Assembly (NCBI GenBank): GCA_964057225.1
Contig: OZ059899.1
Coordinates: forward strand, 11,160,001 to 11,224,000
Origin: Auanema rhodensis
Taxonomy: Eukaryota; Animalia; Nematoda
Direction: 5' to 3'
DNA: 64,000 nt
Part shown: one piece after another, positions 1 to 42,078 of the stretch
Position numbering within the stretch: position 1 is the stretch's first letter
Layout: the number at the start of each line of letters is the position of its first letter
The notes under the pieces: model-generated
Database searches by the model: none
Told to the model about the DNA's origin: nothing
What the model saw: only the letters and a program-made list of their open reading frames with translations
Position numbers and translations under genes: made by a program

Positions 1-3000
1 CAACTTTCTACTAGCGAACGCAATCGGGTGTAATGGAGAATTTTTCTCTGCTGATTGCAATAAAACTGCTCCCACAGCGATCATACTGCCATCACTTTCT
101 ATAACAAAAGGTTGGTCTGCTTTAGGAGGTTTCAGTACAGGGGCAGTACACAGTAATGTTTTTAAAGTTTTAAATGCGTCTGCATGTTCCGATTTCCACT
201 CAAAAGGAGTATCCTTATGTGTTAACTTATACAATGGCTCCGCTATTTCGGCATAATTTTGAATAAACCGTCGAAAATAGTTAGTCATACCTAGAAAGGA
301 TCTAACAGCCGTAACTGTACTTAACTTTGGAAATTCGGAAACAGCCTCTATCTTAGCAGGATCTGGTTTAACACCATTTCTACCTATTACAAAACCCAAA
401 AACTTTACTTCAGTGGCTGCAAAGCAGCATTTAGATAACTTAATTTTTAACCCTAGTTCAGTGACCTTTTTCAGCACTTCTTGTATATCTCTTAAATGTT
501 CTTCAGCTGAGTTCGAAATTATTAGCAAATCATCTAGATATACAAACAGTTTGCATCTAACAAGAGATTGCAAGTATCGTACTGCGGATTGAAAAGTGTG
601 TGGCGCTCCACACAATCCCATAGGCATTCGGCAATACTGATAGGTACCTGATGGAGTGGTAAAAGCAGTTAGGTATCTATCTGAGCGTTTCAACGGTATT
701 TGGAAGAAACCAGAAATGAGATCAAAATTCGAAAAGAACTGAGCTCCAGCCGCTAAGTCGATGATATCAGGAATGTGTGGGATGCTGTATGTTTGTTTCT
801 TAGTAACACTATTCAATGCTCTAAAGTCAGTAACGAACCGGAAAGAATTATCTTTCTTTTTCACAAGAACAACCGGACTAGTGAAAGTAGCCGTCGAATT
901 TTCGATTATACCTTGCGACAACATTTCTTTCACTTGCCGTTCTACTTCTTCTTGCTTACCCAATGGTACTCTGTAAGATCTACTTTTTGGAAAATCCATA
1001 TCAGATCTTATAGGAATGGCATGTTCAACTGGTCCGCAAAAGAGACCAATATTATGATCATGGTTGAAAAATGCCGTTTGGTTTTCCTTAATGATTGTGA
1101 TCAGATTTTTCTTCATTTTATGGGACAGAGTGCAAGAATTGAAGTTCAAATCATCCAAAAGATGCTGAGGAAAAGTTGGTAACTTATCTTCCCAATCAGC
1201 TTCAGGTGGAACATAATCGTACATAATTTCTTTAGATGCTATAAGTCCTGAACCAATGTGGTCATTTTTATTAATTTTAATTGGCTTTGAAGAATTGTTT
1301 GATACTACCATAGTAATAGGAAAAGGTCCTATGGCGGCATCTGGAATTGAGATAGGACCTGTGCTAGATTTTAAAAGAGCATATTGATCAAAATCTAATT
1401 CTGGTCCTGTTTGCAAAGATATATGGGAGGTACTGTGTGGTGGAACTGTTACTGTGGACAAACTTATGATATTTACTGTTTTAGTTGTGGTTTTATATGC
1501 AAAACGACCAGGTTTTACCAAAGGTGTTTCCATATTACCAACAATCAACTTGCCTTTACATAGTTTTAATGTAGTAAATATCTCTCTTTCTTCCAACGTA
1601 CGCATAAAATCAGTACCAAGTAACATTTGTCCTGGACAGTCATTGTCTTCAGATATTAAAAATTCGTGTTCCACTTGGTAACCTGCTATACCCACATCTA
1701 ACTTGCATTTTCCCACAAAGCGAAACTCTGATCCATTTGCAGTGGATGCAGATTTAGAATATTTTGTAAAATATTGTCTTCCAATATATGCCAATGTGGA
1801 GAACGGAATATATGAGACCGTAGCTCCAGAATCCCATAATGCTAACAGTCCTCTACCTTCAATGTCAATATGAACAAACGGTAACATGTGTCCATTTTTC
1901 TTTGTTGTTGTGTGACATACAAAAGGTATGGCTAAAGGAATGTAAGTTATGATGGTGGGAAAATAGCTCCGCATCAATTCATCACTAACTGTTTCATGAA
2001 TCTCATCTCCCTCAAGTGGGGGAGCTGTTGGGCTCAACATGATATGGTTTATTTTTAACATAGAAGTAGGGGAGAGATAACATTTTATAGTGAAATATAA
2101 TGCTATCATTAGACATAATATCAGAGTTATACAACCGATGGTAATGAGTGTTCGTTCAATTGAACCTATACAAAAGTCAATGAACAGATCCCAATTGGAG
2201 AAAACAATTTTCCTGGCATCTCTTATAAGTTTACTTCCTTTGAAGATGAAAGAGGAAATTTGAGGCCAATCACGTGAACGAGAAATTACGCGGAGAAGAT
2301 CATGGTGAGGAGAAGTAGATAAACTATAACCATAAGTTAATCCAATAGATAGGGCTAAGGATTTTTCAGTCGAATTTTCAAACAAATTCCGCCCTGTGAA
2401 TCGAAGTTTACTCAATTCAGCATAATGATCATGTTTTTCTGAATGAATACTATCTACTTTATGTGTGTCACCTTTATAATCTCTCCATGTTCCATTTTCA
2501 TACCAAATCTCTGTCTCTTTGTGTTCACAATTGATCTCATGTCCTTCAGTGCTCAAATCGTAGCTATCGATAGGAGCAAAGAATAATTGTTTATCGTGTG
2601 TTAAAACAGGGGTCTCTGCATAACATTTATCATTGTAAGAATGATTACGATAAATGAAATGTGGTTCTATTTCCTGACAAGTTGTTATTTTTAAAACATT
2701 TCTTCCAACAAATCGGGCAACGATATCATCCCGCTGAAGCATAGCTCTTACTCCTATTGTAGGATGTATACGTAATATAGCTTGCCAGCTTTTTACAGTT
2801 TCCATTTGAGATTTACAGATGGTATGAAACTGTTGATGAAATTCGTCAATTATGGAGAGACGCGCTTTCTCAAACCCATAATTCAACTTATTATCTATTA
2901 TCGTTTTAGTTTTAAGCTCTGATTTGTGGAGAACATTGTCATATACTTCTGCTACATACAACTCTCGACCTCTCTCGTACGCATTAGGGGTAGGAGTTGT

Positions 3001-5964
3001 TAAACTACGAATTGTAGTTTTGGTGGCAGTTATTGGGGTTACAGTAGTATGCTGTACCATATTTTTATCAGTTGTGATTTGAGTTTTAACCCAACTTATA
3101 AATTCTAAAACTTCTGTTTTATTGAATTTAGGATTTTCCTGTGGGTATTCGATGGACTGTGGAGGAAATCCATAATATGCTGTACTATTCTTTGTATAAA
3201 GGTTGTGATAGTCAGGCAGCTTGGATATAATTGCTAAATCTTGCTCTTGGTTATTTCTAACAGTAGCATCAGCTTTTTGTTGTCGACTGACTTGCATGTC
3301 ACGAGATATTTGTTCTTTTCCCGATTGTTGTTGGATCATGAATAACATGCCTTGAGCAGTTGCAATAATTTCAGATTGATTCATATTTCCACTGCGTGGT
3401 AATATAGATGGATATAAGGCTCTTGCCAACTGTTCAATTGATGGAACTGTTTGTGTACCATCAAGAATTGTGGCTTGATATACTACTGCGTGAGCCATTC
3501 CTCGAAAGAAATCTTCTATGGATGTTGTAGATTTCATCAAAGATCTTTTTAACCGAGGAACTTCTATACGACGAGCTACTTGAGTGATAAGATCATCCAA
3601 TTTCATGCTATTAATCATCTGTCTAGTAGCCAGTTTAATTTCCTCTATACCCATACATTGTAAAATCAAAAGATTGGGATCTTTGAAATTATTAGACTTT
3701 GCCCAGTTAGTTATATGATCTTTTGTCAATCCTAAACTAACAATTGTGTCAATGAACAGTGGATTATCTATCGCGAATTGGAGCAAACTCTCATAAGATG
3801 ATGTAGCTGCATATCTCATATATTTTGCGTAAAACTTAGTGATAGATGCAGATCCAAAAATGAAAGTAGGTCTTAGAAATGGAAACGCATATGGTTGGGA
3901 TTTCGCATTAACAAAAAGATAATCATCACTGAAAGAGCGATGTTTTTTTGAGGTAATGCATTACGTTTATTTCTGCGTCTATCAGCATTAAGCAAAGTAT
4001 TGGAAAGATCAAGCAAATTATAAACACGGGGATATGCTGTGAATCGGATAATTGCCTCAGAAGATGATTCAAAAACAGCGAATTCGAAACAAGATTGAAC
4101 GTGAGCGGATGTGGAATGATTTTGGAGAACAAAAGCGCTTTCAATAGAGTGAACTAGAAGAATATGATCACCCAACATGGCGGAGAAGGGGCCAAGTTTT
4201 TGATAGTGACAGACAACTGATAGGATAGGTGGTTGCCAGATAACTGCACCTTCACCAGTTGCACAAAACCCTTCATTTCCTTTACAATTATCAGTATTTA
4301 TAAATAAGTCTGATACAATGTGATCTTCTTTCAATCTAGTTATTATCCCTCGCTTCAATACAAATTGTTCAATTTCTACACATTCTTCAGTGGACCAAGA
4401 GCGAGTTGGATTATGCTCGTTTAATGGTGTTTCAAAAACTGAATGCTGTTGGGCATTCATGATTTTATCATTCCACATACGATTTCTATGTGCTCGAACA
4501 CAATCTTTCTTATCTACTGTTTCAATATGAGAGAATGTGGTGTTACGATCTCTCAAAAACATGAAATCTCTCACACAGCTTTTATACTTTTTCACATAGC
4601 ATTTCCATGCTTCCCATGACTCTATCTCAGCCTTTGGTAGATATATTTCTACCTCAACACTGTGAGCCTTTTCAATTTCTGCCTTATGGCAGCCTGTGAC
4701 CACAGGAGGTGTTACTAATATACCCCCTTTCAAATTGAGCGCAAATCTGATATTTTGCCGACCCAAAGGGAAGGCATGAGAGTGCCAATAAAGTCAGGCA
4801 CAACGTGACCGGTGGCATGAATGGGGTCGCTACGCTGTATACCCTTGAGTTACCATTCCCATTGGCTGATGGTCTTTGTCTTCTTGGGGAACTAGGCCTA
4901 GGGTTCCAAGACGAGCTATTGGCATTTCTGCCATTGGCAAATGGGCGGTTTCCCGGGTTAGGACGCCTATTCATATTCCCGTTCTGCGAGTTATTATTAT
5001 TATAACGTACGGCAGAAGGTCGCTCTCTCTCTCGCTCATAATCATTAGAGCCATTATTGTGCTGAGTCCAGTTATTATTTTTTTTATTATTTTTATTATT
5101 TTTATAATTTTTATTATTATTATTATTCCTACTTCTTTCTCTTTCTTCACTAAAGCTTAATTTATGTTGTAAAGCATTTATGAGCTCCTTCAAGGTGCTG
5201 GTGTCTTCATTTCTTTTCATGAAGCTATTCCGAACGCCTTCTTCAAACCTAGCTAATTTCTTAGCTTGTTCATAAGTGGCGGGGTTTTTAGTTAAAACCG
5301 CAATACCCAGTTCCTCTTTTAAACCATTTAAAAATGCCGTTTTCAACATTGGTTCCCGCTCGGGATCCATTGGTGACATTATGGTGCTTGCCATTCTCTC
5401 TAATTCCATACTAAAATCGAGAACAGATTTATCTCCTTGTTGTATTCGATGAATAAGCGCTATGGTGAAATTTTTATCTGTTTTAGGCGCTAAAAGCTCA
5501 GTGAGCTGATCCATCAAAACAATCCATGGGCCATTAGTTCTTATGCCACTAGGAATACTATTATACAAGGAGAGAGCTGTTTCATTTGATTCCAAAAGAA
5601 GAGGTAAAATTAATAGTCTCTCAGGTAAACTTAGATTCATAACATTAAAAAATCTATTTAAAGATTCAACAAAAGAACGAAAGCTACGAGAGCCGTCATA
5701 CCTGGGACAGAGATGGCAATTCAAAATAGTTGCCATATTTCTAGAGGGTGGTGCAACATTAGAATTAGGAGATGGAGAGGTAGGAGTCATTTTTCTTTCA
5801 AAAGCTTTAGTTATAGCAGCGGCCCACCGACTTGGTGATCTATTTCGTACTGTAGTAGGTGCCCGAGGTGTTTCCTCTGTGATGGCCTTTCTGCTTTTAC
5901 TTCTCGTTCTAATTGTTAGAGAAGAAGAATGAGAAGAAGAAGAGGAATCACCTTCTTCTCTCAA
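1..5964 (-). pseudogene. Element A Gag-Env-Pol polyprotein with two homopolymer frameshifts (Gag, Env, PR, RT and start of RNase H in window)
   Basis: ORFs 4684-5964 and 3873-4766 match B aa 1-~690. There is +1 nt at ~4729 and +2 nt at ~3945 relative to B. The ORF track shows no stop-terminated minus-strand ORF in 1-3870, consistent with a frame open to the edge. Confidence 0.85.
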
Positions 5965-15728: not shown

Positions 15729-15835
15729 TACGAAAGTACGAAATAACAAAGCGCTGATTATAGGAAACGTGAATGAATGCAGATATTCTCAATTCCGATT
15801 TATTAACTAGATCGTGGTCAGCATTTTACAACATT

Positions 15836-16216
15836 TGTCACATCTGCAAGCACATGGTAAACATGTGCGCGCTATTCAAATAGCGGGAGCCTGAACAAGC
15901 CCCGCCCACAACATGGGACACACATGGCACTCTTGCTTCTGGCCTAACCCAGATAGGTTGTCTTATAGCCATGTGAGTCTCATCTCTATATCATCTATAT
16001 ATATACTCTATTTAATACTTTTTTAGATCTCTTTATAATCTTTCTTAATGTAATTCTTATATTGTATTTTCTTGTTATCTGATAATGAATCCTTTTCTCT
16101 TTAAGTATTTGTCTTAATAAGGAAATCGGGGCGTTCGGGTCTGCCTACCTAAGGAACAAGGTAGAAGTACATATATCTTCCGACCATGAAAAGACGGGAA
16201 GAAACAATATGTAACG
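15836..16216 (+). repeat. 5' LTR of element B (TGTCACAT...ATGTAACG)
   Basis: Direct repeat of 25578-25958. Confidence 0.97.
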
Positions 16217-16229
16217 TGGAGGTTCCACC
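16217..16229 (+). promoter_or_regulatory. PBS of element B (tRNA-Gln)
   Basis: TGGAGGTTCCACC directly after the 5' LTR. Confidence 0.85.
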
Positions 16230-17368
16230 TTGCTTACTTTACTGTTAATTTATTGACATCAAGTTTACGAGACTTTTGGACTTAATTACCCAACAGTGAG
16301 GAGTAACCGAGCCGTGCACCATGATTTCCCCAAAAATTATTTTGGCTACCACTTCTCCTCCGCTCAACGAAAACTGGGAGGTGTCTGAGACGTTTGGGGA
16401 AACTATCAGACAATAGTTTTGACGAGCGTTACCTTTTTGTTATGCACGCGCGTGCTATTTTGATTCATTACTTTATGATGTGAATGTCCAGTGTGGCAAC
16501 AGAGCTCACTTTTTAGCTGAGTTGTTTGGAAGCTGGAGGCTGTTGGGATAATTTTATTTACGATTTTTGATTTTGATTCACATCCAAGGGTTCATCAGGG
16601 TTCTACTCCTGTTAACTCTTTTCTTATTAGTTCAGAGATAATAAGAATATTTAAATTCCTACCCACCCAAGTCCACTCTACGTCTGCCAACGTTTCCTTT
16701 TTCCTATATTATTGACAGATTACTGAATTTAAATTCCTATATCAATCTTAAATTACCTTCTAAATCTTTTGAAATTAAATTAAAAATTATCTTAATTAAG
16801 ATTTATTTTGAAATTCTTTCTACAAATCTTAATAAACTTTATAAAATTGAACTTAATATACGAGATGAGACATTTTTGTTTACTTTAAGCTTACTCACAT
16901 TCAAATAGTTGGCCCACGCGTACCAGCTGTTCGACATGTGTAGTCAATAACAGCTGTTAAAATTCAAAAGTTTTCAAACAGGCTTAAGGCACCATCTGTG
17001 ATTCCTTATTTGTCTCTAAGCTGACATTAGTGATTATAATATTCAAATATCACGACAGACGGTCAATGGTTGTTTACCATAAGCGCTAACATCTGGTGTC
17101 GTGACACATGGCTGGAGGCGGAGCTTGAAGCTTCAACGATCCTCCTTCATCAGACGCCATTGTCACAAACGTTTTTACTGGAGTCTAGTTGCTTCCAGTA
17201 CGCGCTCTTATATTCATCTAACTGTATTCACCAGCCACCCTGTCGGACTCGGACATCAGCGAGGAAAACAAAGATCAGGAACAAGGATCACCAGAGGTAC
17301 GCCAAGTTTTTGAATTTAATTCTAAAAACTTAAATACTCCATCCACCTACCTCTCTCCTTTTGAATTT

Positions 17369-20300
17369 TTGAGAGAAGAAGGTGATTCCTCTTCTTCTTC
17401 TCACTCTTCTTCTCTAACAATTAGAACGAGAAGTAAAAGCAGAAAGGCCATCACTGAGGAAACACCTCGGGCACCTACTACAGTACGAAATAGATCACCA
17501 AGTCGGTGGGCCGCTGCTATAACTAAAGCTTTTGAAAGAAAAATGACTCCTACCTCTCCATCTCCTAATTCTAATGTTGCTCCACCCTCTAGAAATATGG
17601 CAACTATTTTGAATTGTCATCTCTGTCCCAGGTATGACGGCTCTCGTAGCTTTCGTTCTTTTGTTGAATCTTTAAATAGAATTTTTAATGTTATGAATCT
17701 AAGCTTACCTGAGAGACTATTAATTTTGCCTCTTCTTTTGGAATCAAATGAAACAGCTCTCTCCTTGTATAATAGTATTCCTAGTGGCATAAGAACTAAT
17801 GGCCCATGGATTGTTTTGATGGATCAGCTCACTGAGCTTTTAGCGCCTAAAACAGATAAAAATTTCACCATAGCGCTTATTCATCGAATACAACAAGGAG
17901 ATAAATCTGTTCTCGATTTTAGTATGGAATTAGAGAGAATGGCAAGCACCATAATGTCACCAATGGATCCCGAGCGGGAACCAATGTTGAAAACGGCATT
18001 TTTAAATGGTTTAAAAGAGGAACTGGGTATTGCGGTTTTAACTAAAAACCCCGCCACTTATGAACAAGCTAAGAAATTAGCTAGGTTTGAAGAAGGCGTT
18101 CGGAATAGCTTCATGAAAAGAAATGAAGACACCAGCACCTTGAAGGAGCTCATAAATGCTTTACAACATAAATTAAGCTTTAGTGAAGAAAGAGAAAGAA
18201 GTAGGAATAATAATAATAATAAAAATTATAAAAATAATAAAAATAATAAAAAAAATAATAACTGGACTCAGCACAATAATGGCTCTAATGATTATGAGCG
18301 AGAGAGAGAGCGACCTTCTGCCGTACGTTATAATAATAATAACTCGCAGAACGGGAATATGAATAGGCGTCCTAACCCGGGAAACCGCCCATTTGCCAAT
18401 GGCAGAAATGCCAATAGCTCGTCTTGGAACCCTAGGCCTAGTTCCCCAAGAAGACAAAGACCATCAGCCAATGGGAATGGTAACTCAAGGGTATACAGCG
18501 TAGCGACCCCATTCATGCCACCGGTCACGTTGTGCCTGACTTTATTGGCACTCTCATGCCTTCCCTTTGGGTCGGCAAAATATCAGATTTGCGCTCAATC
18601 TGAAGGGGGTATATTAGTAACACCTCCTGTGGTCACAGGCTGCCATAAGGCAGAAATTGAAAAGGCTCACAGTGTTGAGGTAGAAATATATCTACCAAAG
18701 GCTGAGATAGAGTCATGGGAAGCATGGAAATGCTATGTGAAAAAGTATAAAAGCTGTGTGAGAGATTTCATGTTTTTGAGAGATCGTAACACCACATTCT
18801 CTCATATTGAAACAGTAGATAAGAAAGATTGTGTTCGAGCACATAGAAATCGTATGTGGAATGATAAAATCATGAATGCCCAACAGCATTCAGTTTTTGA
18901 AACACCATTAAACGAGCATAATCCAACTCGCTCTTGGTCCACTGAAGAATGTGTAGAAATTGAACAATTTGTATTGAAGCGAGGGATAATAACTAGATTG
19001 AAAGAAGATCACATTGTATCAGACTTATTTATAAATACTGATAATTGTAAAGGAAATGAAGGGTTTTGTGCAACTGGTGAAGGTGCAGTTATCTGGCAAC
19101 CACCTATCCCATCAGTTGTCTGTCACTATCAAAAACTTGGCCCCTTCTCCGCCATGTTGGGTGATCATATTCTTCTAGTTCACTCTATTGAAAGCGCTTT
19201 TGTTCTCCAAAATCATTCCACATCCGCTCACGTTCAATCTTGTTTCGAATTCGCTGTTTTTGAATCATCTTCTGAGGCAATTATCCGATTCACAGCATAT
19301 CCCCGTGTTTATAATTTGCTTGATCTTTCCAATACTTTGCTTAATGCTGATAGACGCAGAAATAAACGTAATGCATTACCTCAAAAACATCGCTCTTTCA
19401 GTGATGATTATCTTTTTGTTAATGCGAAATCCCAACCATATGCGTTTCCATTTCTAAGACCTACTTTCATTTTTGGATCTGCATCTATCACTAAGTTTTA
19501 CGCAAAATATATGAGATATGCAGCTACATCATCTTATGAGAGTTTGCTCCAATTCGCGATAGATAATCCACTGTTCATTGACACAATTGTTAGTTTAGGA
19601 TTGACAAAAGATCACATAACTAACTGGGCGAAGTCTAATAATTTCAAAGATCCCAATCTTTTGATTTTACAATGTATGGGTATAGAGGAAATTAAACTGG
19701 CTACTAGACAGGTGATTAATAGCATGAAATTGGATGATCTTATCACTCAAGTAGCTCGTCGTATAGAAGTTCCTCGGTTAAAAAGATCGTTGATGAAATC
19801 TACAACATCCATAGAAGACTTCTTTCGAGGAATGGCTCACGCAGTAGTATATCAAGCCACAATTCTTGATGGTACACAAACAGTTCCATCAATCGAACAG
19901 TTGGCAAGAGCCTTATATCCATCTATATTACCACGCAGTGGAAATATGAATCAATCTGAAATTATTGCAACTGCTCAAGGCATGTTATTCATGATCCGAC
20001 AACAATCGGGAAAAGAACAAATATCTCGTGACATGCAAGTCAGTCGACAACAAAAAGCTGATGCTACTGTTAGAAACAACCAAGAGCAAGATTTAGCAAT
20101 TATATCCAAGCTGCCTGACTATCACAACCTTTATACAAAGAATAGTACAGCATATTATGGATTTCCTCCACAGTCCATCGAATACCCACAGGAAAATCCT
20201 AAATTCAATAAAACAGAAGTTTTAGAATTTATAAGTTGGGTTAAAACTCAAATCACAACTGATAAAAATATGGTACAGCATACTACTGTAACCCCAATAA

Positions 20301-23300
20301 CTGCCACCAAAACTACAATTCGTAGTTTAACAACTCCTACCCCTAATGCGTACGAGAGAGGTCGAGAGTTGTATGTAGCAGAAGTATATGACAATGTTCT
20401 CCACAAATCAGAGCTTAAAACTAAAACGATAATAGATAATAAGTTGAATTATGGGTTTGAGAAAGCGCGTCTCTCCATAATTGACGAATTTCATCAACAG
20501 TTTCATACCATCTGTAAATCTCAAATGGAAACTGTAAAAAGCTGGCAAGCTATATTACGTATACATCCTACAATAGGAGTAAGAGCTATGCTTCAGCGGG
20601 ATGATATCGTTGCCCGATTTGTTGGAAGAAATGTTTTAAAAATAACAACTTGTCAGGAAATAGAACCACATTTCATTTATCGTAATCATTCTTACAATGA
20701 TAAATGTTATGCAGAGACCCCTGTTTTAACACACGATAAACAATTATTCTTTGCTCCTATCGATAGCTACGATTTGAGCACTGAAGGACATGAGATCAAT
20801 TGTGAACACAAAGAGACAGAAATTTGGTATGAAAATGGAACATGGAGAGATTATAAAGGTGACACACATAAAGTAGATAGTATTCATTCAGAAAAACATG
20901 ATCATTATGCTGAATTGAGTAAACTTCGATTCACAGGGCGGAATTTGTTTGAAAATTCGACTGAAAAATCCTTAGCCCTATCTATTGGATTAACTTATGG
21001 TTATAGTTTATCTACTTCACCTCACCATGATCTTCTCCGCGTAATTTCTCGTTCACGTGATTGGCCTCAAATTTCCTCTTTCATCTTCAAAGGAAGTAAA
21101 CTTATAAGAGATGCCAGGAAAATTGTTTTCTCCAATTGGGATCTGTTCATTGACTTTTGTATAGGTTCAATTGAACGAACACTCATTACCATCGGTTGTA
21201 TAACTCTGATATTATGTCTAATGATAGCATTATATTTCACTATAAAATGTTATCTCTCCCCTACTTCTATGTTAAAAATAAACCATATCATGTTGAGCCC
21301 AACAGCTCCACCACTTGAGGGAGATGAGATTCATGAAACAGTTAGTGATGAATTGATGCGGAGCTATTTTCCCACCATAATAACTTACATTCCTTTAGCC
21401 ATACCTTTTGTATGTCACACAACAACAAAGAAAAATGGACACATGTTACCGTTTGTTCATATTGACATTGAAGGTAGAGGACTGTTAGCATTATGGGATT
21501 CTGGAGCTACGGTCTCATATATTCCGTTCTCCACATTGGCATATATTGGAAGACAATATTTTACAAAATATTCTAAATCTGCATCCACTGCAAATGGATC
21601 AGAGTTTCGCTTTGTGGGAAAATGCAAGTTAGATGTGGGTATAGCAGGTTACCAAGTGGAACACGAATTTTTAATATCTGAAGACAATGACTGTCCAGGA
21701 CAAATGTTACTTGGTACCGATTTTATGCGTACGTTGGAAGAAAGAGAGATATTTACTACATCAAAACTATGTAAAGGAAAGTTGATTGTTGGTAATATGG
21801 AAACACCCTTAGTAAAACCTGGTTGTTTTGCATATAAAACCACAACTAAAACAGTAAATATCATAAGTTTGTCCACAGTAACAGTTCCACCACATAGTAC
21901 CTCCCACATATCTTTGCAAACAGGACCAGAATTAGATTTTGATCAATATGCTCTTTTAAAATCTAGCACAGGTCCTATATCAATTCCAGATGCCGCCATA
22001 GGACCTTTTCCTATTACTATGGTAGTATCAAACAATTCTTCAAAGCCAATTAAAATTAATAAAAATGACCACATTGGTTCAGGACTTATAGCATCTAAAG
22101 AAATTATGAACGATTATGTTCCACCTGAAGCTGATTGGGAAGATAAGTTACCAACTTTTCCTCAGCATCTTTTGGATGATTTGAACTTCAATTCTTGCAC
22201 TCTGTCTCATAAAATGAAGAAAAATCTGATCACAATCATTAAGGAAAACCAAACGGCATTTTTCAACCATGATCATAATATTGGTCTCTTTTGCGGACCA
22301 GTTGAACATGCCATTCCTATAAGATCTGATATGGATTTTCCAAAAAGTAGATCTTACAGAGTACCATTGGGTAAGCAAGAAGAAGTAGAACGGCAAGTGA
22401 AAGAAATGTTGTCGCAAGGTATAATCGAAAATTCGACGGCTACTTTCACTAGTCCAGTTGTTCTTGTGAAAAAGAAAGATAATTCTTTCCGGTTCGTTAC
22501 TGACTTTAGAGCATTGAATAGTGTTACTAAGAAACAAACATATAGCATCCCACACATTCCTGATATCATAGACTTAGCGGCTGGAGCTCAGTTCTTTTCG
22601 AATTTTGATCTCATTTCTGGTTTCTTCCAAATACCGTTGAAACGCTCAGATAGATACCTAACTGCTTTTACCACTCCATCAGGTACCTATCAGTATTGCC
22701 GAATGCCTATGGGATTGTGTGGAGCGCCACACACTTTTCAATCCGCAGTACGATACTTGCAATCTCTTGTTAGATGCAAACTGTTTGTATATCTAGATGA
22801 TTTGCTAATAATTTCGAACTCAGCTGAAGAACATTTAAGAGATATACAAGAAGTGCTGAAAAAGGTCACTGAACTAGGGTTAAAAATTAAGTTATCTAAA
22901 TGTTGCTTTGCAGCCACTGAAGTAAAGTTTTTGGGTTTTATAATAGGTAGAAATGGTGTTAAACCAGATCCTGCTAAAATACAGGCTGTTTCCGAATTTC
23001 CAAATCCAAGCACAGTTACGGCTGTCAGATCCTTTCTAGGTATGACTAACTATTTTCGACGGTTTATTCAAAATTATGCCGGAATAGCTGAGCCATTGTA
23101 TAAGTTAACACATAAGGATACTCCTTTTGAGTGGAAATCGGAACATGCAGACGCATTTAAAACTTTAAAAACATTACTGTGTACTGCCCCTGTACTGAAA
23201 CCTCCTAAAGCAGACCAACCTTTTGTTATAGAAAGTGATGGCAGTATGATCGCTGTGGGAGCAGTTTTATTACAATCAGCAGAGAAAAATTCTCCATTAC

Positions 23301-24976
23301 ACCCGATTGCGTTCGCTAGTAGAAAGTTGACTCCAGCGGAACGGAAATATCCTCCTATTGAAGTTGAAGCACTCGGTTTAGTCTTTGCTCTTCAACAATT
23401 CCGTACCTATGTATTAGGAGTACCTACCACAGTTATCACAGATCACCGACCATTAACCAGTTTAATGTCGCGTAAAGATCTCATAGGTAGATTAGCCAAG
23501 TATCAACTAATGATACAAGATTTCAACATAAAGATTGAATATCGTCCTGGCAAATTAAACAGTGTCTGTGATGCTCTCTCCAGGTATATAGGAAACGAAG
23601 CAAATGACAGTCGTCCTACTAAACCAAAGGACAAAGTAAACCCTGTTGATGCTTTTATTGCTCATATCACAACTATTTCTTCTATTGACCAACTAAATTG
23701 TGAAGAAATACGGAAAGTTCAAGCTGGAGTTCCCTGGATTCGCGAAGCACTTTCTCAAATTAATAATGATAACTGTCCGGCTAATATATCAGACCGGTAT
23801 GAAGAACGAGAAGGCATATTACATGCAAAACAAGCGAAAAATTATTTGAAACCATCTATTATTTTGCCTCGTAACGACAAAATAACTGATGTTGTTATCA
23901 AGTTTTTTCATGAAGATTCCAAAATTGGTGCACACCTAGGTATAAATAAAACTACTGATGCGATTCGACGACGATTCTTTTGGACTAATATGGTTCCACA
24001 AATAACTGAATTTATTAATCGTTGTACAAAATGTGCAAGTAGGAAATCTAACCCACACCAATCGTATATTCAACCTATGGGAAGATTTGTTATACCCGAA
24101 AAGCCATTTGATCGTATTCATGTAGATATACTAGGTCCTTTACCTCGCACTAATGATGGACATCGATACATCTTGAGTATTCAAGACGCTTTTAGTAAAT
24201 GGGGAACAACTTGCCCATTAATAACACAAACGGTTACTGAAATCACAAAAGCGTTTGTAATTAGATTTGTTTTCATATATGGACCACCAATGAGTATGAT
24301 AACCGATAATGGTAGTAGCTTTTTGTCATCTGAATTTCAAGCTATGTGTAAACAATTTGGAATTGAACACACTACTACGCTACCATATCATAAAAATGCT
24401 AATGGACAAGTGGAGAGACTTCATAGAACTTTAGAAGAAGCTCTCTCTTCATTCGTGAATGAACAACAAACTAACTGGGATATACACCTACCTAAAGTTA
24501 TGTTTGCGATCAATACGTTACCATACTCATCAACATCTATTAGTCCATATGTTGTATTATTTGGTCGGGATGCAAGACTTCCTATTGATCATCAATTGCC
24601 TGGAAATAATCTTCAAACTGAAGAACCAGCCAATCCTACAGAAGATTTTGTCAATAGATCGCTAATACAAAATGAAAGCACATCTAATATAGTAAAAGAT
24701 AGAATTGAAACATGCACAAAGAAGAATGAACAACGGTACAATACACGAAATAGAACACAAAATAAAGAAATTCAGGTTAATGACTTAGTTATGATAAAAG
24801 TGAATTCTACTCGAAACAAACTAACACCTTCATTCGAAGGGCCTTATTTAGTTACAGCAGTTCAAAGATCTTTCGTCGTGGTTCAAACAGATAAAGGAAA
24901 AAGCAGAAGAGTACACAAGGACTTCGTCAAACCTTACCAACGGACAACATCTATTCCGGTTATCACAATTTCTTGA
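17369..24976 (+). CDS. Gag-Env-Pol polyprotein (Gag, signal peptide, class III-like glycoprotein, TM, aspartic protease, RT, RNase H, integrase); true start uncertain
   Basis: Gag-like CPRYDG..F core; signal ~18515-18577; furin-type RRRNKR 19352-19369; TM ~21182-21244; LWDSGA (D at 21497); YLDD 22790-22801; IESDGS (RNase H); HHCC plus HVD/TDNG/ERLHR (integrase); GPY motif. Confidence 0.95.
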   Translation: MREEGDSSSSSHSSSLTIRTRSKSRKAITEETPRAPTTVRNRSPSRWAAAITKAFERKMTPTSPSPNSNVAPPSRNMATILNCHLCPRYDGSRSFRSFVESLNRIFNVMNLSLPERLLILPLLLESNETALSLYNSIPSGIRTNGPWIVLMDQLTELLAPKTDKNFTIALIHRIQQGDKSVLDFSMELERMASTIMSPMDPEREPMLKTAFLNGLKEELGIAVLTKNPATYEQAKKLARFEEGVRNSFMKRNEDTSTLKELINALQHKLSFSEERERSRNNNNNKNYKNNKNNKKNNNWTQHNNGSNDYERERERPSAVRYNNNNSQNGNMNRRPNPGNRPFANGRNANSSSWNPRPSSPRRQRPSANGNGNSRVYSVATPFMPPVTLCLTLLALSCLPFGSAKYQICAQSEGGILVTPPVVTGCHKAEIEKAHSVEVEIYLPKAEIESWEAWKCYVKKYKSCVRDFMFLRDRNTTFSHIETVDKKDCVRAHRNRMWNDKIMNAQQHSVFETPLNEHNPTRSWSTEECVEIEQFVLKRGIITRLKEDHIVSDLFINTDNCKGNEGFCATGEGAVIWQPPIPSVVCHYQKLGPFSAMLGDHILLVHSIESAFVLQNHSTSAHVQSCFEFAVFESSSEAIIRFTAYPRVYNLLDLSNTLLNADRRRNKRNALPQKHRSFSDDYLFVNAKSQPYAFPFLRPTFIFGSASITKFYAKYMRYAATSSYESLLQFAIDNPLFIDTIVSLGLTKDHITNWAKSNNFKDPNLLILQCMGIEEIKLATRQVINSMKLDDLITQVARRIEVPRLKRSLMKSTTSIEDFFRGMAHAVVYQATILDGTQTVPSIEQLARALYPSILPRSGNMNQSEIIATAQGMLFMIRQQSGKEQISRDMQVSRQQKADATVRNNQEQDLAIISKLPDYHNLYTKNSTAYYGFPPQSIEYPQENPKFNKTEVLEFISWVKTQITTDKNMVQHTTVTPITATKTTIRSLTTPTPNAYERGRELYVAEVYDNVLHKSELKTKTIIDNKLNYGFEKARLSIIDEFHQQFHTICKSQMETVKSWQAILRIHPTIGVRAMLQRDDIVARFVGRNVLKITTCQEIEPHFIYRNHSYNDKCYAETPVLTHDKQLFFAPIDSYDLSTEGHEINCEHKETEIWYENGTWRDYKGDTHKVDSIHSEKHDHYAELSKLRFTGRNLFENSTEKSLALSIGLTYGYSLSTSPHHDLLRVISRSRDWPQISSFIFKGSKLIRDARKIVFSNWDLFIDFCIGSIERTLITIGCITLILCLMIALYFTIKCYLSPTSMLKINHIMLSPTAPPLEGDEIHETVSDELMRSYFPTIITYIPLAIPFVCHTTTKKNGHMLPFVHIDIEGRGLLALWDSGATVSYIPFSTLAYIGRQYFTKYSKSASTANGSEFRFVGKCKLDVGIAGYQVEHEFLISEDNDCPGQMLLGTDFMRTLEEREIFTTSKLCKGKLIVGNMETPLVKPGCFAYKTTTKTVNIISLSTVTVPPHSTSHISLQTGPELDFDQYALLKSSTGPISIPDAAIGPFPITMVVSNNSSKPIKINKNDHIGSGLIASKEIMNDYVPPEADWEDKLPTFPQHLLDDLNFNSCTLSHKMKKNLITIIKENQTAFFNHDHNIGLFCGPVEHAIPIRSDMDFPKSRSYRVPLGKQEEVERQVKEMLSQGIIENSTATFTSPVVLVKKKDNSFRFVTDFRALNSVTKKQTYSIPHIPDIIDLAAGAQFFSNFDLISGFFQIPLKRSDRYLTAFTTPSGTYQYCRMPMGLCGAPHTFQSAVRYLQSLVRCKLFVYLDDLLIISNSAEEHLRDIQEVLKKVTELGLKIKLSKCCFAATEVKFLGFIIGRNGVKPDPAKIQAVSEFPNPSTVTAVRSFLGMTNYFRRFIQNYAGIAEPLYKLTHKDTPFEWKSEHADAFKTLKTLLCTAPVLKPPKADQPFVIESDGSMIAVGAVLLQSAEKNSPLHPIAFASRKLTPAERKYPPIEVEALGLVFALQQFRTYVLGVPTTVITDHRPLTSLMSRKDLIGRLAKYQLMIQDFNIKIEYRPGKLNSVCDALSRYIGNEANDSRPTKPKDKVNPVDAFIAHITTISSIDQLNCEEIRKVQAGVPWIREALSQINNDNCPANISDRYEEREGILHAKQAKNYLKPSIILPRNDKITDVVIKFFHEDSKIGAHLGINKTTDAIRRRFFWTNMVPQITEFINRCTKCASRKSNPHQSYIQPMGRFVIPEKPFDRIHVDILGPLPRTNDGHRYILSIQDAFSKWGTTCPLITQTVTEITKAFVIRFVFIYGPPMSMITDNGSSFLSSEFQAMCKQFGIEHTTTLPYHKNANGQVERLHRTLEEALSSFVNEQQTNWDIHLPKVMFAINTLPYSSTSISPYVVLFGRDARLPIDHQLPGNNLQTEEPANPTEDFVNRSLIQNESTSNIVKDRIETCTKKNEQRYNTRNRTQNKEIQVNDLVMIKVNSTRNKLTPSFEGPYLVTAVQRSFVVVQTDKGKSRRVHKDFVKPYQRTTSIPVITIS

Positions 24977-25565: not shown

Positions 25566-25577
25566 AAGGTGGGGGGA
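25566..25577 (+). promoter_or_regulatory. Polypurine tract of element B
   Basis: AAGGTGGGGGGA directly before the 3' LTR. Confidence 0.85.
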
Positions 25578-25958
25578 TGTCACATCTGCAAGCACATGGT
25601 AAACATGTGCGCGCTATTCAAATAGCGGGAGCCTGAACAAGCCCCGCCCACAACATGGGACACACATGGCACTCTTGCTTCTGGCCTAACCCAGATAGGT
25701 TGTCTTATAGCCATGTGAGTCTCATCTCTATATCATCTATATATATACTCTATTTAATACTTTTTTAGATCTCTTTATAATCTTTCTTAATGTAATTCTT
25801 ATATTGTATTTTCTTGTTATCTGATAATGAATCCTTTTCTCTTTAAGTATTTGTCTTAATAAGGAAATCGGGGCGTTCGGGTCTGCCTACCTAAGGAACA
25901 AGGTAGAAGTACATATATCTTCCGACCATGAAAAGACGGGAAGAAACAATATGTAACG
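25578..25958 (+). repeat. 3' LTR of element B
   Basis: No difference from the 5' LTR seen by eye. Confidence 0.97.
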
Positions 25959-38118: not shown

Positions 38119-41100
38119 GTGGCTAAGAGATTCCATTCAGCCGTACCTATAAGTACGCATTTCGATTCCCAAGACTCAGCTCCCTTTACCAGAAGTCGAG
38201 CTCGAGCTCAAGACGTCGCTATATTAGAAGAGGAGCAGAAAGTCGACAAGAAGCCGGATAATTTCCTTATTCCTACTACCGATTCTGTCTCACCTACTGA
38301 ACAACTAGGCGACCCGGACTACGTACCTACTATAGAAGAAGAACTATCAATCATTGTGGAGGAACAAACACCGATCACTCCTAAAAAGGTACGCTCCTCT
38401 AATTCTAATAAAAATAAGAAAAATCAAAACATCAGCGACGCTTCTCTCTCTCTCTCACTAACTGAACCAACCGATTCCCCTTTACTTTCAAAAACTTCTA
38501 GCGCGGGTGGGCTTAGTTCTCTTAGAAACATTGTTACTGATCTTTTTAACCTTTCGCCTAAAGATAAAACTTTCAACACCAAGCGCAAAAGCAGATATTC
38601 ATCAGTCCCTAACATTAATATCTCACCAATTCAACCACCTGCACCAAATACCAGTATTCATCAAACTTTTACTCCCATCTTAACAACAACAGACTCACTT
38701 CCTAAGGCACCCAATAGACCTATTCCATCCACGCAAACAACCCCTATTTTGGAGACCCCACCAATAACAGGTAGAACGATCAAAATACCATCTACCCGTA
38801 CGAATAACATCATGACGGAAGCTGTTTCCTCACTACCTGGGGCAGGGAAAACAACAATCGCGCAAGCCTTACTTTCGCCTTACTGTCCAACTTACGACGG
38901 CAGTCGTAACTTCCGTGATTTTACGGGTAAATTCAACTTGTTTGCTAATGCCATTGGCCTTGTTATCCCTGAAAGGTTAGCACTTCTTCCTTTGCTTCTC
39001 AAAAATGAAGCAGCAGAAGAAGCTTACAGACAAGTTCCTGAACAACTTAAAACAACTGGTTCGTGGAATGATCTGATTAGAGCACTAACATCGAAGCTCT
39101 GCCCTGAATATAACCAAGACCCTGCACTTATTAACCTTCAAAACACCACGCAAGGGGAATTGACAATTGATGCATACGCCCAAGCATTAAGAACAATGGC
39201 ATTGAGTGCATTTGCATCTGATGACCCACATAAAGATCAAATACTGAGATCAACATTCCTCAGAGGACTTAAAAATTCTCTAAAACCAGCTGTGATCCGA
39301 GCAAAGCCAAAATCCTTCACAGAAGCGATTGAAGCAGCTCGCTGGGAGGAATCGATAGTGAACCAAACAACAGACACGCAATCGATGTTGGTCAACGCTG
39401 TGAACAAAGCACTAGCACCCTTTGCGCGTAATGATGAGAGACGAGATAGCCAAACATTTAATCGCAATTATCAACGCGATAACCAAATGATAAGAAATAA
39501 TCAAAATTATCAAAATAATCAAAATTATCAAAATTATCAAAAAAATAAAAACTTTTCTAATTTCAATAATAATCGAAACCGTTACGGTTCTTTCGCTAAT
39601 AATAATCGCCGTACAAATTATAACGAACAAGATAATAGGCAATCGAGTTCTGATTGGCATCAAAGAAATTATAATTTTCGTCATAACAACCAACGAGGTA
39701 GATTCAATAACAACAACGGACAAAGAAGAGTTCAATTCAAAAATCCAAGAGACAACTCAAGAGGAAGAGATAGAAGCTCAACAAGAATAAACTCTGTCAC
39801 CCTTTCGCCTTTGACGCTCACAGTTATCATGGCAATAACAGCAGCAATATTCTTGCCCTGTGCATCTACATATCAAATCTGTACAAGAGCAACAGGAGGC
39901 GCATTACTTATGCCACCAACAATCAGAAAATGCAGATTAACAGAGAAAAACCATGTGCTACGTACAGAAGTTCATCTGTACACAAGAAATCACACAGCAC
40001 ACGAATGGGATGCGTGGCGTTGTTCAGAGGAAGTACACAAGTTATGCGTACGAGACCTGCTATTCCTCCGCGATACGAACAGAACAATAAATAGAATACA
40101 GCCTATAGGAGAGCGCGAATGCAGACAGGCGATCCGCGATCGCAAGTGGAATAACATAGAACTGCAACGCATTGATAGTATCACCCAAGCAACTCCGGAG
40201 CCCTCCTATGACCCAGCGCGCGCGTTCAACCGCGACGCGTGCGAGGAGCGGTCACGTCTAATATTAGAGCGCGGAGTCATGACCCGTATGCCTGACGATA
40301 CAATATTGTCAAACTTAATATTAAACACGGAAGGATGCAATGCACATCATGGTAATTGTGAATCAAGTACATCAATAATAATATGGGACCCACAAACCAC
40401 TGCTTCACGTTGTAATTACATCGATATGCATACATATGACGCTATCATTAGTCAAGATACTATTTTAATCCCTAGTACACAATCGGCACTTATTCTTTCG
40501 AGCAAACCAACTCCGAAACCTATTTCTTCTTGCTTCAGGCAGCCAGCGTTCCATACGACATCAGGAAATTATATCATTCTTCCTAAATTTCCAAACGACA
40601 ACAATATAACCACCCTTATTGAAAGAGAGTTCAAAAAGCTGCCGTTTAAAAGACCAAAACGTGCAGTCACCGAAGGATATTCTTTCCCACTGGATCAAGA
40701 TCGGATCAACGAAGTTGAAGATTATGAAACAGTATTGCTTCACGTCTGTCCATATACTTTCCTAAGACCATTAATGAGTAATCCCGGTATTACTTCAATT
40801 ATTCCTATAATCAAAGGAAGACGTTTAGTAGATCCAACATACTCTCTAAAGGCATGGATAACATCACATAAAGAAAAATTCGAATTTTTCTTCAGAATTC
40901 AAATAAATGAACATTCTGTTCGACATTTTCTCAAGCAATACGATTTCAGTGATAAAGAAGAAGCTCTGCTATATTATATAGCACAAAGAGAATTAGCCAT
41001 TACTACAAAGGCAGCAATATCATACTTAACATCTGAACAGCTTCTCGAACAAATATCAGATCGTTTGACAGTAATCGAATTCGATGAAATCATAAGGAAG

Positions 41101-42078
41101 AAAGAAGGTTCATATCGCGAACGAATTGAAAGCATAGCTCTCAATTTAACCAATACACCAGTTATAATTGAAGAAGGACTGACAGTTCCATCACGACAAG
41201 AAGTCCTACAAACGTTCATACAAATGCCACCAATAAGGAAACGTATACTAACTGACGAGGAAGAGAAGAAAAGCGAATTCATTAAGGCAACGATCAATTT
41301 ACTAAGAGAACTAAAAACCCTCACAACAGTACGATGGAATAAAACTGCAGCATTTATTGATGACAGAAAATTTATAAAATTGCCAGCATCACGACAATTC
41401 ATGCCAAATACAGATAAACTATTTTATGACAGGAAGAATAATTATGGAATACCGATCGGCCCACACCCTAAGCTGATCAAGCCCAGCAATCTTTCAAAGA
41501 AATTATTATTGGAAATATTTTTACCCCTGCTCAATAATGTAAAAACACCTTATACATCGAGTAGGATAACACAAGAACAACTTCAAATCTTAATGGCAGA
41601 GAAAAATGAAACAAATTTTCGGCAAATCGCAACGCGGACATCCAGCGTCGCGGCAGGCGGCGCGGCTAGCGTCGCTGCAGGCGGCGCGGCTAGCGGCGCG
41701 GTTGTGACACCAGTCCAACCTTTGATCGAACAGAAGGGAACAATCCAATCAGTTACCACAATACAGCCGCATATAACGAACAATCCTCACACAAATGCAA
41801 CAACCACCACAAGAGCACCATCATGGAGGCAACAGCCATCAACAACGGCGCCTCACACGACCGCTGCGACAACAGCACGCACAACAACATCAACCGCTCG
41901 TTCGCCAACAACAACAAGAAGCTATGCCATATACAAAGACGCACAGATTCCAAAAATACAAGAGACAACCGAAGCCTCTCCAACATTGATTCGAAAAAAA
42001 CCGAGCTTCCTCAACACCATCAGTAGAAACCTCAAATTTAGTGGAAGCAAATGCGAGATACATAGCAACGAAAATTGA
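38119..42078 (+). CDS. Element C polyprotein, N-terminal part (Gag plus most of the Env ectodomain), cut by a frameshift in the A7 run at 41994-42000
   Basis: Homologous to B and D: YCPTYDGSRNF, signal peptide then YQIC, furin-type KRPKR, Thr-rich region. Confidence 0.85.
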   Translation: MAKRFHSAVPISTHFDSQDSAPFTRSRARAQDVAILEEEQKVDKKPDNFLIPTTDSVSPTEQLGDPDYVPTIEEELSIIVEEQTPITPKKVRSSNSNKNKKNQNISDASLSLSLTEPTDSPLLSKTSSAGGLSSLRNIVTDLFNLSPKDKTFNTKRKSRYSSVPNINISPIQPPAPNTSIHQTFTPILTTTDSLPKAPNRPIPSTQTTPILETPPITGRTIKIPSTRTNNIMTEAVSSLPGAGKTTIAQALLSPYCPTYDGSRNFRDFTGKFNLFANAIGLVIPERLALLPLLLKNEAAEEAYRQVPEQLKTTGSWNDLIRALTSKLCPEYNQDPALINLQNTTQGELTIDAYAQALRTMALSAFASDDPHKDQILRSTFLRGLKNSLKPAVIRAKPKSFTEAIEAARWEESIVNQTTDTQSMLVNAVNKALAPFARNDERRDSQTFNRNYQRDNQMIRNNQNYQNNQNYQNYQKNKNFSNFNNNRNRYGSFANNNRRTNYNEQDNRQSSSDWHQRNYNFRHNNQRGRFNNNNGQRRVQFKNPRDNSRGRDRSSTRINSVTLSPLTLTVIMAITAAIFLPCASTYQICTRATGGALLMPPTIRKCRLTEKNHVLRTEVHLYTRNHTAHEWDAWRCSEEVHKLCVRDLLFLRDTNRTINRIQPIGERECRQAIRDRKWNNIELQRIDSITQATPEPSYDPARAFNRDACEERSRLILERGVMTRMPDDTILSNLILNTEGCNAHHGNCESSTSIIIWDPQTTASRCNYIDMHTYDAIISQDTILIPSTQSALILSSKPTPKPISSCFRQPAFHTTSGNYIILPKFPNDNNITTLIEREFKKLPFKRPKRAVTEGYSFPLDQDRINEVEDYETVLLHVCPYTFLRPLMSNPGITSIIPIIKGRRLVDPTYSLKAWITSHKEKFEFFFRIQINEHSVRHFLKQYDFSDKEEALLYYIAQRELAITTKAAISYLTSEQLLEQISDRLTVIEFDEIIRKKEGSYRERIESIALNLTNTPVIIEEGLTVPSRQEVLQTFIQMPPIRKRILTDEEEKKSEFIKATINLLRELKTLTTVRWNKTAAFIDDRKFIKLPASRQFMPNTDKLFYDRKNNYGIPIGPHPKLIKPSNLSKKLLLEIFLPLLNNVKTPYTSSRITQEQLQILMAEKNETNFRQIATRTSSVAAGGAASVAAGGAASGAVVTPVQPLIEQKGTIQSVTTIQPHITNNPHTNATTTTRAPSWRQQPSTTAPHTTAATTARTTTSTARSPTTTRSYAIYKDAQIPKIQETTEASPTLIRKKPSFLNTISRNLKFSGSKCEIHSNEN

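What the first reader, a model, noticed from the sequence alone, without database searches (positions are those of the whole stretch)
18578..21258. The embedded envelope looks like a class III viral fusogen (rhabdovirus G-like fusion domain, herpes gB-like C-terminus)
Seen in all three families: AW[KR]C-x6/7-C[VI]RD(FMF/LLF)LRD...C; C-x5-C...I[IV]W...C.Y; a polybasic site (RRRNKR, KRPKR, KRDKR); then IC..Q.....W..IL.I.PT...R..L.R.DI.ARFVG......C........NH..N..CY.ETPV...EI.C; several N-x-S/T sequons; and one TM. From memory, the first block resembles the VSV G fusion-loop region (GWMC...CDFRWYG...C). The last block resembles herpes gB/chuvirus glycoprotein domains III-IV (WC..Q..W...NP...AR..GDV...C...CY.RP). 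Inference: a furin-cleaved class III fusogen captured by a gypsy element, with DFMFL/DLLFL as a candidate fusion loop.
Basis: partly seen in the sequence, partly recalled or inferred. Interest (0 to 1): 0.8.

Follow-up and report, generated by a model that had tools for sequence, protein, structure and literature searches.

The report
Herpes-like fusion protein in nematode retroelement
A retrovirus-like mobile element, likely from a roundworm, encodes inside its one long capsid-envelope-enzyme protein an envelope predicted to fold like the herpesvirus fusion protein gB; such elements are already published, and the only part I did not find described is an extra helical domain with no clear structural match.

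Summary
The motifs are real in all three element families. The region is the envelope of a Ty3/gypsy element with one Gag-Env-PR-RT-IN frame (17543-24976) and identical LTRs. Its AlphaFold model (pLDDT 77) matches class III fusogens. The best hits are prefusion herpes gB (Z 12-13.6, about 380-400 residues), and the first 12 rows of a 48,161-chain search are all class III. DFMFL lies at a hairpin tip that is hydrophobic in 41 of 41 aligned rows, so it is a good fusion-loop candidate. It is not a rhabdovirus/herpes chimera: both halves match gB best. The kind is published as nematode GAG-ENV-POL 'HSV/gB-type' elements (PMC13524379, citing Sacco 2022). Close homologues come from Auanema and Caenorhabditis, and the primer site matches published elements. 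The scan noted the same layout before on other DNA (e1-8573737). It holds a ~200-aa helical domain (pLDDT 85, best Z 5.0, under purifying selection, related cores in 15 database proteins) and a Thr-rich stalk. Trimer formation, cleavage and fusion are untested.

The parts
15836..16216 (+). 5' LTR of element B (381 bp), after a 4-bp target-site duplication CATT
   Evidence: 100% identical to the 3' LTR; flanks shown
16217..16228 (+). Primer-binding site of tRNA-Gln type
   Evidence: its reverse complement equals the Gln_UUG_CUG entry of Clat_errantivirus_4 and Ctro_errantivirus_1 in supplement file 2 of PMC13524379. Element C has the same site.
17543..24976 (+). Single ORF Gag-Env-PR-RT-RNase H-IN (2477 aa from the first ATG)
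   Evidence: Pfam RVT_1, RT_RNaseH, rve, aspartyl protease; weak Retrotrans_gag
18497..18577 (+). Predicted internal signal sequence between Gag and Env (aa 426-452)
   Evidence: Hydropathy; a signal-like stretch in 35 of 36 relatives with Gag before a complete Env start; the cleavage point is inferred
18578..19351 (+). Env domains I-II (fusion domain and PH-like domain), aa 453-710
   Evidence: Model residues 28-258 align to HSV-1 gB 140-459 and HCMV gB 120-436; block pLDDT 85-98 over residues 1-260
18767..18778 (+). Candidate fusion loop 1 (FMFL, aa 516-519) at a beta-hairpin tip
   Evidence: Strands E46-64 and E67-79 of the model; two or more hydrophobic residues in 41 of 41 rows and an aromatic in 39 of 41
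18929..18943 (+). Candidate fusion loop 2 (around W572, before C577)
   Evidence: An aromatic in 32 of 32 rows, but two or more hydrophobic residues in only 21 of 32; the C512-C577 bond is inferred
19352..19369 (+). Furin-like site RRRNKR (aa 711-716)
   Evidence: lies where HCMV gB has its disordered loop 441-473 with the furin site 456-459 (PMC4617298 passages)
19421..20026 (+). Inserted all-helical domain with no clear structural match (aa 734-935)
   Evidence: pLDDT 84.6, pTM 0.81; best Z 5.0 among 48,161 chains; no BFVD hit at E<=0.001; C-D pN 0.25 against pS 0.85
20027..20347 (+). Low-confidence helical tail and Thr-rich linker of the insert (aa 936-1042)
   Evidence: pLDDT <50 over model residues 490-543 and 561-588; Thr-rich in B, C, D and many relatives
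20348..20956 (+). Domain III central helix, domain IV and domain V (aa 1043-1245)
   Evidence: Sequence profile hit to gB, best E 3e-6; helix H591-662; PRV gB domain IV Z 8.5, rmsd 3.6, 156 of 175 residues
20957..21250 (+). Membrane-proximal stem and the single TM (aa 1321-1343)
   Evidence: a TM between Env and PR in 38 of 39 relatives
21440..24571 (+). Protease, RT, RNase H and integrase, in frame behind the Env tail
25578..25958 (+). 3' LTR of element B, preceded by a polypurine tract
59305..62109 (-). Envelope of family D, uninterrupted, with the same architecture including the insert
39871..42949 (+). Envelope of family C, split by a frameshift near 41990; its integrase also ends early at 45892
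2072..4755 (-). Envelope of copy A (99% identical to B), broken by two frameshifts near 4727 and 3946

Best explanation
This is the envelope gene of a Ty3/gypsy LTR element, likely of a rhabditid nematode, read in one frame with Gag and Pol; its product is predicted to be a herpes gB-like class III fusion protein that would let virus-like particles fuse with new cells. Inferred working: Gag is made in the cytosol and the internal signal sequence (aa 426-452) threads Env into the ER. The TM (aa 1321-1343) stops transfer, so PR-RT-IN returns to the cytosol on the Env tail and would be released by the element's protease. Env would be glycosylated, form trimers, be cut at RNKR716, and fuse membranes through the FMFL hairpin tip and the W572 loop. 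After the cut, the inserted helical domain would sit on a Thr-rich stalk at the start of the membrane-anchored subunit. I think it most likely serves attachment or shields the prefusion spike (about 0.45 for either role). Shown: ORF, LTRs, motifs, conservation, purifying selection and the predicted monomer fold. Inferred: topology, cleavage, trimer, fusion and the role of the insert.
For: Foldseek against the PDB: 106 matches at E<=0.001, and all 38 listed rows are herpes gB. VIA: prefusion gB of EBV Z 13.6 (rmsd 11.7, 397 aligned), HSV-2 Z 12.9 (6.4, 380) and HCMV Z 12.6 (7.3, 402), spanning model residues 1-783. Foldseek-free search of 48,161 chains: rows 1-12 are gB, Chandipura and rabies G, thogotovirus Gp and GP64; the best non-class-III row is Z 4.9. 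BFVD: the top rows are glycoproteins of Beihai rhabdo-like virus 3, Nyavirus midwayense and Keturi virus. By sequence alone, all 41 PDB matches to the profile are herpesvirus gB (40 named so, plus KSHV ORF8; best E 3e-6). Pfam Monjiviricetes_fusion passes its cut-off in C and D. The fusion-loop tip is hydrophobic in 41 of 41 rows, against 0-13 of 44-66 rows at six comparison turns; a seventh comparison window (YAET) scored 59 of 67. pN is far below pS in every Env region between C and D. Of the 150 listed hits, 16 hold Gag<Env<PR<RT in one protein and 59 hold Env fused to Gag or PR. Named close homologues come from Auanema sp. and Caenorhabditis.
Against: Whole-model pTM is only 0.55, rmsd values are 6-12 A and Foldseek TM-scores about 0.17, so the domain arrangement is uncertain. 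B's own ectodomain scores below Pfam's gB cut-off (22 of 43 bits) and did not hit Monjiviricetes_fusion. B alone found nothing useful in the PDB by sequence and nothing in two word-indexed searches. The furin motif is missing from the linker of 54 of 95 two-block proteins. Two of the four envelopes in the window are frameshifted. Herpes gB needs gH/gL to fire (established; also noted in PMC13524379), and no trigger is known here. The Atlas feature hit was 0.90 with low recognition (1201), so it is a lead only.
Confidence: 0.85

Rival explanations
1. The envelope is a recombinant of a rhabdovirus G-like fusion domain and a herpes gB-like C-terminus.
For: The rabies PHD-FD fragment aligns over 141 of 154 residues at rmsd 4.0. 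The N-half is compact (~255 aa against ~320 for HSV-1 gB 140-459). Atlas ranks 2 and 4 carry Rhabdo_glycop families in 15-35% of members.
Against: The same half aligns better to gB domains I-II (Z ~10.8) than to rhabdovirus G (Z 4.7-8.2). No member of A4 matched a rhabdovirus Pfam family at E<=0.01. Compact relatives carry both blocks ~260-290 aa apart as one unit, and BFVD hits of nyamiviruses and chuviruses cover both halves.
Confidence: 0.07
2. The envelope keeps the class III fold but no longer fuses cells; it serves budding, packaging of Pol or receptor interference, and the insert would block fusion.
For: Pol is fused to the Env tail, so Env could be kept for packaging alone. There is no fusion or expression evidence. 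The insert is very large for that loop.
Against: Both fusion loops and 14 Cys are kept across ~40-68 rows. The N block is as conserved as Gag between C and D (68% against 69% identity), which packaging alone would not demand.
Confidence: 0.12
3. The insert is a removable cap or pro-domain, cut out between two protease sites to prime fusion, and not an attachment domain.
For: P0019 and P0022 have R-x-[KR]-R on both sides of their (different) inserts, and D has basic residues (RKQR) just before the domain III helix. Cap removal is known for Ebola GP and RSV F p27 (recalled).
Against: B has no such site behind the insert; its second site, RLKR852-855, lies inside the helical domain and is not kept in C or D.
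Confidence: 0.25

Closest known systems
GAG-ENV-POL 'HSV/gB-type' Ty3/gypsy errantiviruses of Nematoda, group C1 (Chary and Hayashi, PMC13524379); first reported by Sacco et al. 2022 (doi 10.1099/jgv.0.001739, not held; seen only as cited there)
   Same: Gene order, gypsy-type Pol, gB-type five-domain Env with signal and TM, and the tRNA-Gln primer site. P0005 (rank 5, E 4.9e-72; 28% identical to B over 236 aa) is by eye nearly the same in domains I-II as the published Clat_errantivirus_4.
   Different: New families, 28% identical to that relative. [quoted passage not shown] The elements here sit in a tRNA-Ile gene array.
Herpesvirus glycoprotein B (HSV-1/2, HCMV, EBV, KSHV)
   Same: Domain order I-II, loop, III, IV, V, stem, TM; best structural and sequence matches; furin-like site in the same loop.
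   Different: 8-13% identity; shorter domains I-II; a ~330-aa insert in place of a ~33-aa disordered loop; made within a Gag-Pol polyprotein; no gH/gL partner encoded.
Glycoproteins of Nyamiviridae, Chuviridae and related negative-strand viruses (Pfam Monjiviricetes_fusion PF24664)
   Same: Best predicted-structure hits; Pfam match in C, D and 63 of 75 aligned members.
   Different: The insert alone found no BFVD match at E<=0.001; the host is a retroelement.
Rhabdovirus G, thogotovirus Gp and baculovirus GP64
   Same: Class III fusion module with two loops; Z 5.0-8.2.
   Different: Lower scores than gB; no Pfam match in 75 members at E<=0.01.
BEL/Pao elements of nematodes with captured envelopes (Tas, gB-like, recalled; Atlas, phlebovirus-like class II, PMC9094657, search listing only)
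   Same: LTR elements of nematodes with a viral fusogen.
   Different: Another retroelement family, with Env behind Pol; Atlas has a class II fold.

Membership tests
Class III viral fusogen | Five-domain fold with a beta-rich fusion domain, a PH-like domain, a long central helix and a crown domain | tested here: met
   Predicted model: gB Z up to 13.6 over ~380-400 residues; PRV gB domain IV Z 8.5, rmsd 3.6
Class III viral fusogen | Two internal hydrophobic fusion loops at the tip of domain I | tested here: met
   Loop 1 is hydrophobic in 41 of 41 rows; loop 2 has an aromatic in 32 of 32 rows. Closeness of the two loops in space was not measured.
Class III viral fusogen | Signal sequence, glycosylated ectodomain and a single C-terminal TM | tested here: met
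   Hydropathy and sequons; by sequence only
Class III viral fusogen | Homotrimer through the domain III coiled coil | not tested
Class III viral fusogen | Membrane fusion activity | not testable with these tools
   Needs a cell-cell fusion or liposome assay
Herpesvirus gB family (Pfam PF00606) | Score above the curated cut-off of 43 bits | tested here: not met
   B 22.1, C 35.9 and D 35.6 bits: gB-like, but not a herpesvirus gB
Rhabdovirus G family | Match to Rhabdo_glycop_FD/CD, or best structural match to rhabdovirus G | tested here: not met
   0 of 75 members at E<=0.01; rhabdovirus G is listed below gB at Z 4.7-8.2
Nematode GAG-ENV-POL HSV/gB-type Ty3/gypsy elements | Order Gag-Env-Pol between LTRs with a tRNA primer site | tested here: met
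   the primer site equals that of published Caenorhabditis elements
Nematode GAG-ENV-POL HSV/gB-type Ty3/gypsy elements | Ty3/gypsy Pol (PR-RT-RH-IN order) | tested here: met
   Pfam order; no GyDB profile or RT tree was run
Nematode GAG-ENV-POL HSV/gB-type Ty3/gypsy elements | Env homologous to the published Nematoda C1 group | tested here: met
   B against P0005 E 4e-28, with C504, C512, C537, C577, C609, C616, C634 and C674 aligned to Cys; P0005 compared with Clat_errantivirus_4 by eye only
Nematode GAG-ENV-POL HSV/gB-type Ty3/gypsy elements | Nematode host | tested here: inconclusive
   No genome is held; 7 of 10 looked-up homologues are named Auanema or Caenorhabditis and 3 carry no organism
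Any solved fold, for the inserted domain | Structural match standing above background | tested here: inconclusive
   Best Z 5.0 (TetR-like helices, rmsd 5.0) among 48,161 chains; a weak match does not show a new fold

The most novel reading that the evidence does not exclude
A branch of nematode class III envelopes has built its own receptor-binding or cap domain, of a new all-helical fold on a mucin-like stalk, into the furin loop of a gB-like fusogen. This would make a one-protein attach-and-fuse machine out of a fold that in herpesviruses needs gH/gL and gD, and the loop would act as a swappable slot, holding unrelated inserts of up to 527 aa in relatives.
Probability: 0.3. Interest if true: 0.65.

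Novelty: new member of a known kind. Interest (0 to 1): 0.36.

Why it matters
The class III assignment confirms published predictions and adds new families, so by itself it is modest. Two points could interest specialists. First, how gB-type retroelement envelopes enter cells without herpesvirus helper proteins is stated as unknown in PMC13524379, and the conserved inserted domain is a concrete candidate for the missing attachment or regulatory part. Second, the single frame implies equal amounts of Gag, Env and Pol, with Pol tethered to the Env tail, an unusual way to package the enzymes (inference). The identical LTRs and open frame of B point to a recent insertion, so the protein is probably still functional and suited to structural work.

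Tried and rejected
(1) Word-indexed homologue searches with B's Env found nothing; the full HMMER search did. (2) phmmer of B alone against the PDB gave one chance hit. (3) Idea that the insert is a duplicated Gag capsid C-terminal domain, prompted by a Z 3.2 row to PEG10 CA-CTD: rejected. The profile-profile score was 12.9, against 13.1 for the reversed alignment and up to 21 for block shuffles. (4) SAM/PNT-like reading of the insert (ERG hit, E 0.29): no SAM domain among the 50 listed rows; rejected as a lead. (5) Pfam on the insert: no family matched more than 1 of 11 members. (6) A host source for the insert: the search among longer proteins gave 5 hits, all retroelement proteins, but only 7993 candidates were scored, so this is weak. 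(7) A quick tree of the C-terminal Env block (84 rows; the careful search did not finish; 40 of 81 branches open) puts core-bearing rows in four groups and cannot decide between one old gain with losses and several swaps. (9) Sequencing runs: no RNA holder listed, and one run with a share of 0.05 that I did not lay. (10) No whole genome is held, so copy number is unknown. (11) Sacco et al. 2022 is not held, and searches for it or its terms found only the citing eLife paper. (12) An Atlas search for the insert did not complete. (13) No class I or class II fusogen appears among the listed rows.
Full report
Setting. The window holds four LTR elements inside a tandem array of 667-bp units, each with a tRNA gene. 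Element B spans 15836-25958, with 381-bp LTRs that are 100% identical, a 4-bp target-site duplication, a primer site and a polypurine tract. It has one ORF, 17543-24976. Pfam gives Gag (weak), protease, RT, RNase H and integrase in gypsy order, with ~900 aa between Gag and protease: the finding. Copy A is 99% identical to B and frameshifted twice in that region. C is frameshifted near 41990 and its integrase ends early. D is uninterrupted and runs off the window. Residue numbers count from the frame start at 17222.

Observation. A profile of the three envelopes finds 466 proteins at E<=0.001. Among the best 150, 16 hold Gag, both Env blocks, PR and RT in one chain and 59 hold Env fused to Gag or PR. 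A signal-like stretch precedes Env in 35 of 36 and a TM lies between Env and PR in 38 of 39. Fourteen of B's 16 ectodomain Cys are kept in most of the 75-row alignment.

Fold. AlphaFold2 with that alignment gives pLDDT 77.1 and pTM 0.55, with block values of 85-98 over residues 1-260 and mostly above 90 over 631-760. Foldseek lists only herpes gB in its 38 shown PDB rows. VIA ranks prefusion gB first: EBV Z 13.6 (rmsd 11.7, 397 aligned), HSV-2 Z 12.9 (6.4, 380), HCMV Z 12.6 (7.3, 402). In the Foldseek-free search of 48,161 chains the first 12 rows are all class III: gB Z 8.4-10.9, Chandipura G 8.2, Bourbon and Thogoto Gp 6.3 and 6.2, rabies PHD-FD 5.9, a gB domain II fragment 5.7 and GP64 5.0. 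The next row is Z 4.9. Among predicted viral structures the best hits are glycoproteins of Beihai rhabdo-like virus 3, Nyavirus midwayense and Keturi virus, then chuvirus-like proteins and gB. Sequence agrees: all 41 PDB matches to the profile are gB, and 63 of 75 members match Monjiviricetes_fusion, 38 gB, 13 bornavirus G and none rhabdovirus G.

Fusion loops and cleavage. FMFL (516-519) lies at the turn between two long strands. All 41 rows covering it have two or more hydrophobic residues, against 0-13 of 44-66 rows at six other turns; one further comparison window scored 59 of 67. The second loop around W572 has an aromatic in 32 of 32 rows. Model residues 29-258 align to HCMV gB 120-436, and HCMV's disordered loop 441-473 holds its furin site (PMC4617298, passages), so RRRNKR is in the equivalent loop. 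The motif R-x-[KR]-R occurs in that linker in 41 of 95 two-block proteins (93 hits plus B and D): 5 of 31 with linkers under 60 aa and 22 of 32 with linkers of 120 aa or more. It is therefore common but not required.

The insert. Compact relatives have the two Env blocks ~260-290 aa apart; B has 615 and D 657. The extra ~330 aa are a helical domain and a Thr-rich stalk. An iterated profile finds the core in 18 of 100 linker segments (B, C, D and 15 database proteins) and in 0 of 1000 shuffles. Between C and D it is 59% identical with pN 0.25 against a saturated pS of 0.85, near the values of the rest of Env (0.19-0.26); between B and the others it is only 19-20% identical. Folded alone it gives pLDDT 84.6 and pTM 0.81. 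It has no match above Z 5.0 in the PDB representatives, none at E<=0.001 in BFVD and no consistent Pfam family. That is not proof of a new fold. A Gag-duplicate origin was tested and rejected. Its five longer homologues are all retroelement proteins. The tree is too weak to count gains.

Mechanism. I commit to a working class III fusogen (0.85 for the overall reading; the fold is more certain than the activity). The inferred path is: cytosolic Gag, internal signal sequence, lumenal Env, TM, then a ~65-residue tail and cytosolic PR-RT-IN. Pol would be drawn into particles on the Env tail. A cut at RNKR716 would leave the insert at the start of the membrane-anchored subunit, where it could bind a receptor or shield the spike; removal as a cap is the main rival. 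None of these steps was observed.

What is known. Chary and Hayashi (PMC13524379) report that elements of Nematoda, Bryozoa and Platyhelminthes carry HSV/gB-type Env in the order GAG-ENV-POL, with predicted five-domain trimers, fusion loops and a furin site that is not always kept; they cite Sacco et al. 2022 for the nematode case. I read the outline, section 5 part 1, section 6, section 9 part 1, sections 14, 18 and 22, and passages. I searched supplement files 2, 3 and 5 for 'Nematoda' (60 of 72, 30 of 995 and 19 of 19 places). The figures were not visible, and Figure 5-figure supplement 1 may show the insert. Sacco et al. is not held; that it describes one continuous gag-env-pro-pol frame and a likeness to nyamivirus glycoproteins is recalled, not read. 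The primer site of B and C equals that of two published Caenorhabditis elements. P0005, 28% identical to B over domains I-II, is by eye nearly the same as the published Clat_errantivirus_4. Seven of ten looked-up homologues are from Auanema or Caenorhabditis. The statement that the insert is not described rests and on searches only. The scan's own notes hold a flatworm element of the same layout with a sugar-rich insert (e1-8573737; not checked here), and nothing by sequence.

Verdict. This is a new member of a known kind, interest 0.36. The inserted domain is the part worth following.

Noticed in passing
window 7502-15835, 25959-36255, 46887-54370: The four elements sit in a tandem array with a 667-bp unit, each unit carrying one tRNA gene on the minus strand (38 Rfam matches; 13 of 13 typed by ARAGORN as tRNA-Ile AAT). 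Insertion points differ within the unit: B 107 bp and C 395 bp upstream of a tRNA gene, A 146 bp downstream of one. This suggests a preference for the region, not Ty3-like fixed-position targeting. Tandem tRNA arrays are reported in germline-restricted DNA of Auanema rhodense (10.64898/2026.08.27.747507, passages only).
   Followed up: partly
window 15836-25958, 36256-46892, 54371: LTR ends are not the usual TG...CA: B reads TGT...AACG and C reads CGTTCC...GGAACG, and D ends in the same way as C. Target-site duplications are 4 bp (CATT, GAAT). C's LTRs are 99.7% identical although its frame is broken.
   Followed up: partly
window 49651-49978: A 328-bp insert with TG...CA ends and a 5-bp duplication TCCGA, likely a solo LTR of another element family.
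   Followed up: no
window 1-7502 and 15836-23329: Copies A and B are 99.2% identical and point away from each other across 13 tRNA units. A's two frameshifts could be real or long-read errors; no reads were laid.
   Followed up: no
P0013, P0020, P0022, P0024 (linker between the Env blocks): Relatives hold a different, Pro/Tyr-rich insert of 314-527 aa in the same loop, and P0019 and P0022 have furin-like sites on both sides of their inserts.
   Followed up: no
members of alignment A4: Eight members carry DUF5641 and one Peptidase_A17 (BEL/Pao context), and one carries AAA_11/AAA_12 helicase domains, so related envelopes also ride on other elements.
   Followed up: no
window 17222-17542; 38056-38800; 63138-63999: All three families have an open, Ser/Thr/Lys-rich frame of 107-287 codons upstream of the first in-frame Met before the capsid domain; a non-ATG start or a spliced start is possible.
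   Followed up: no
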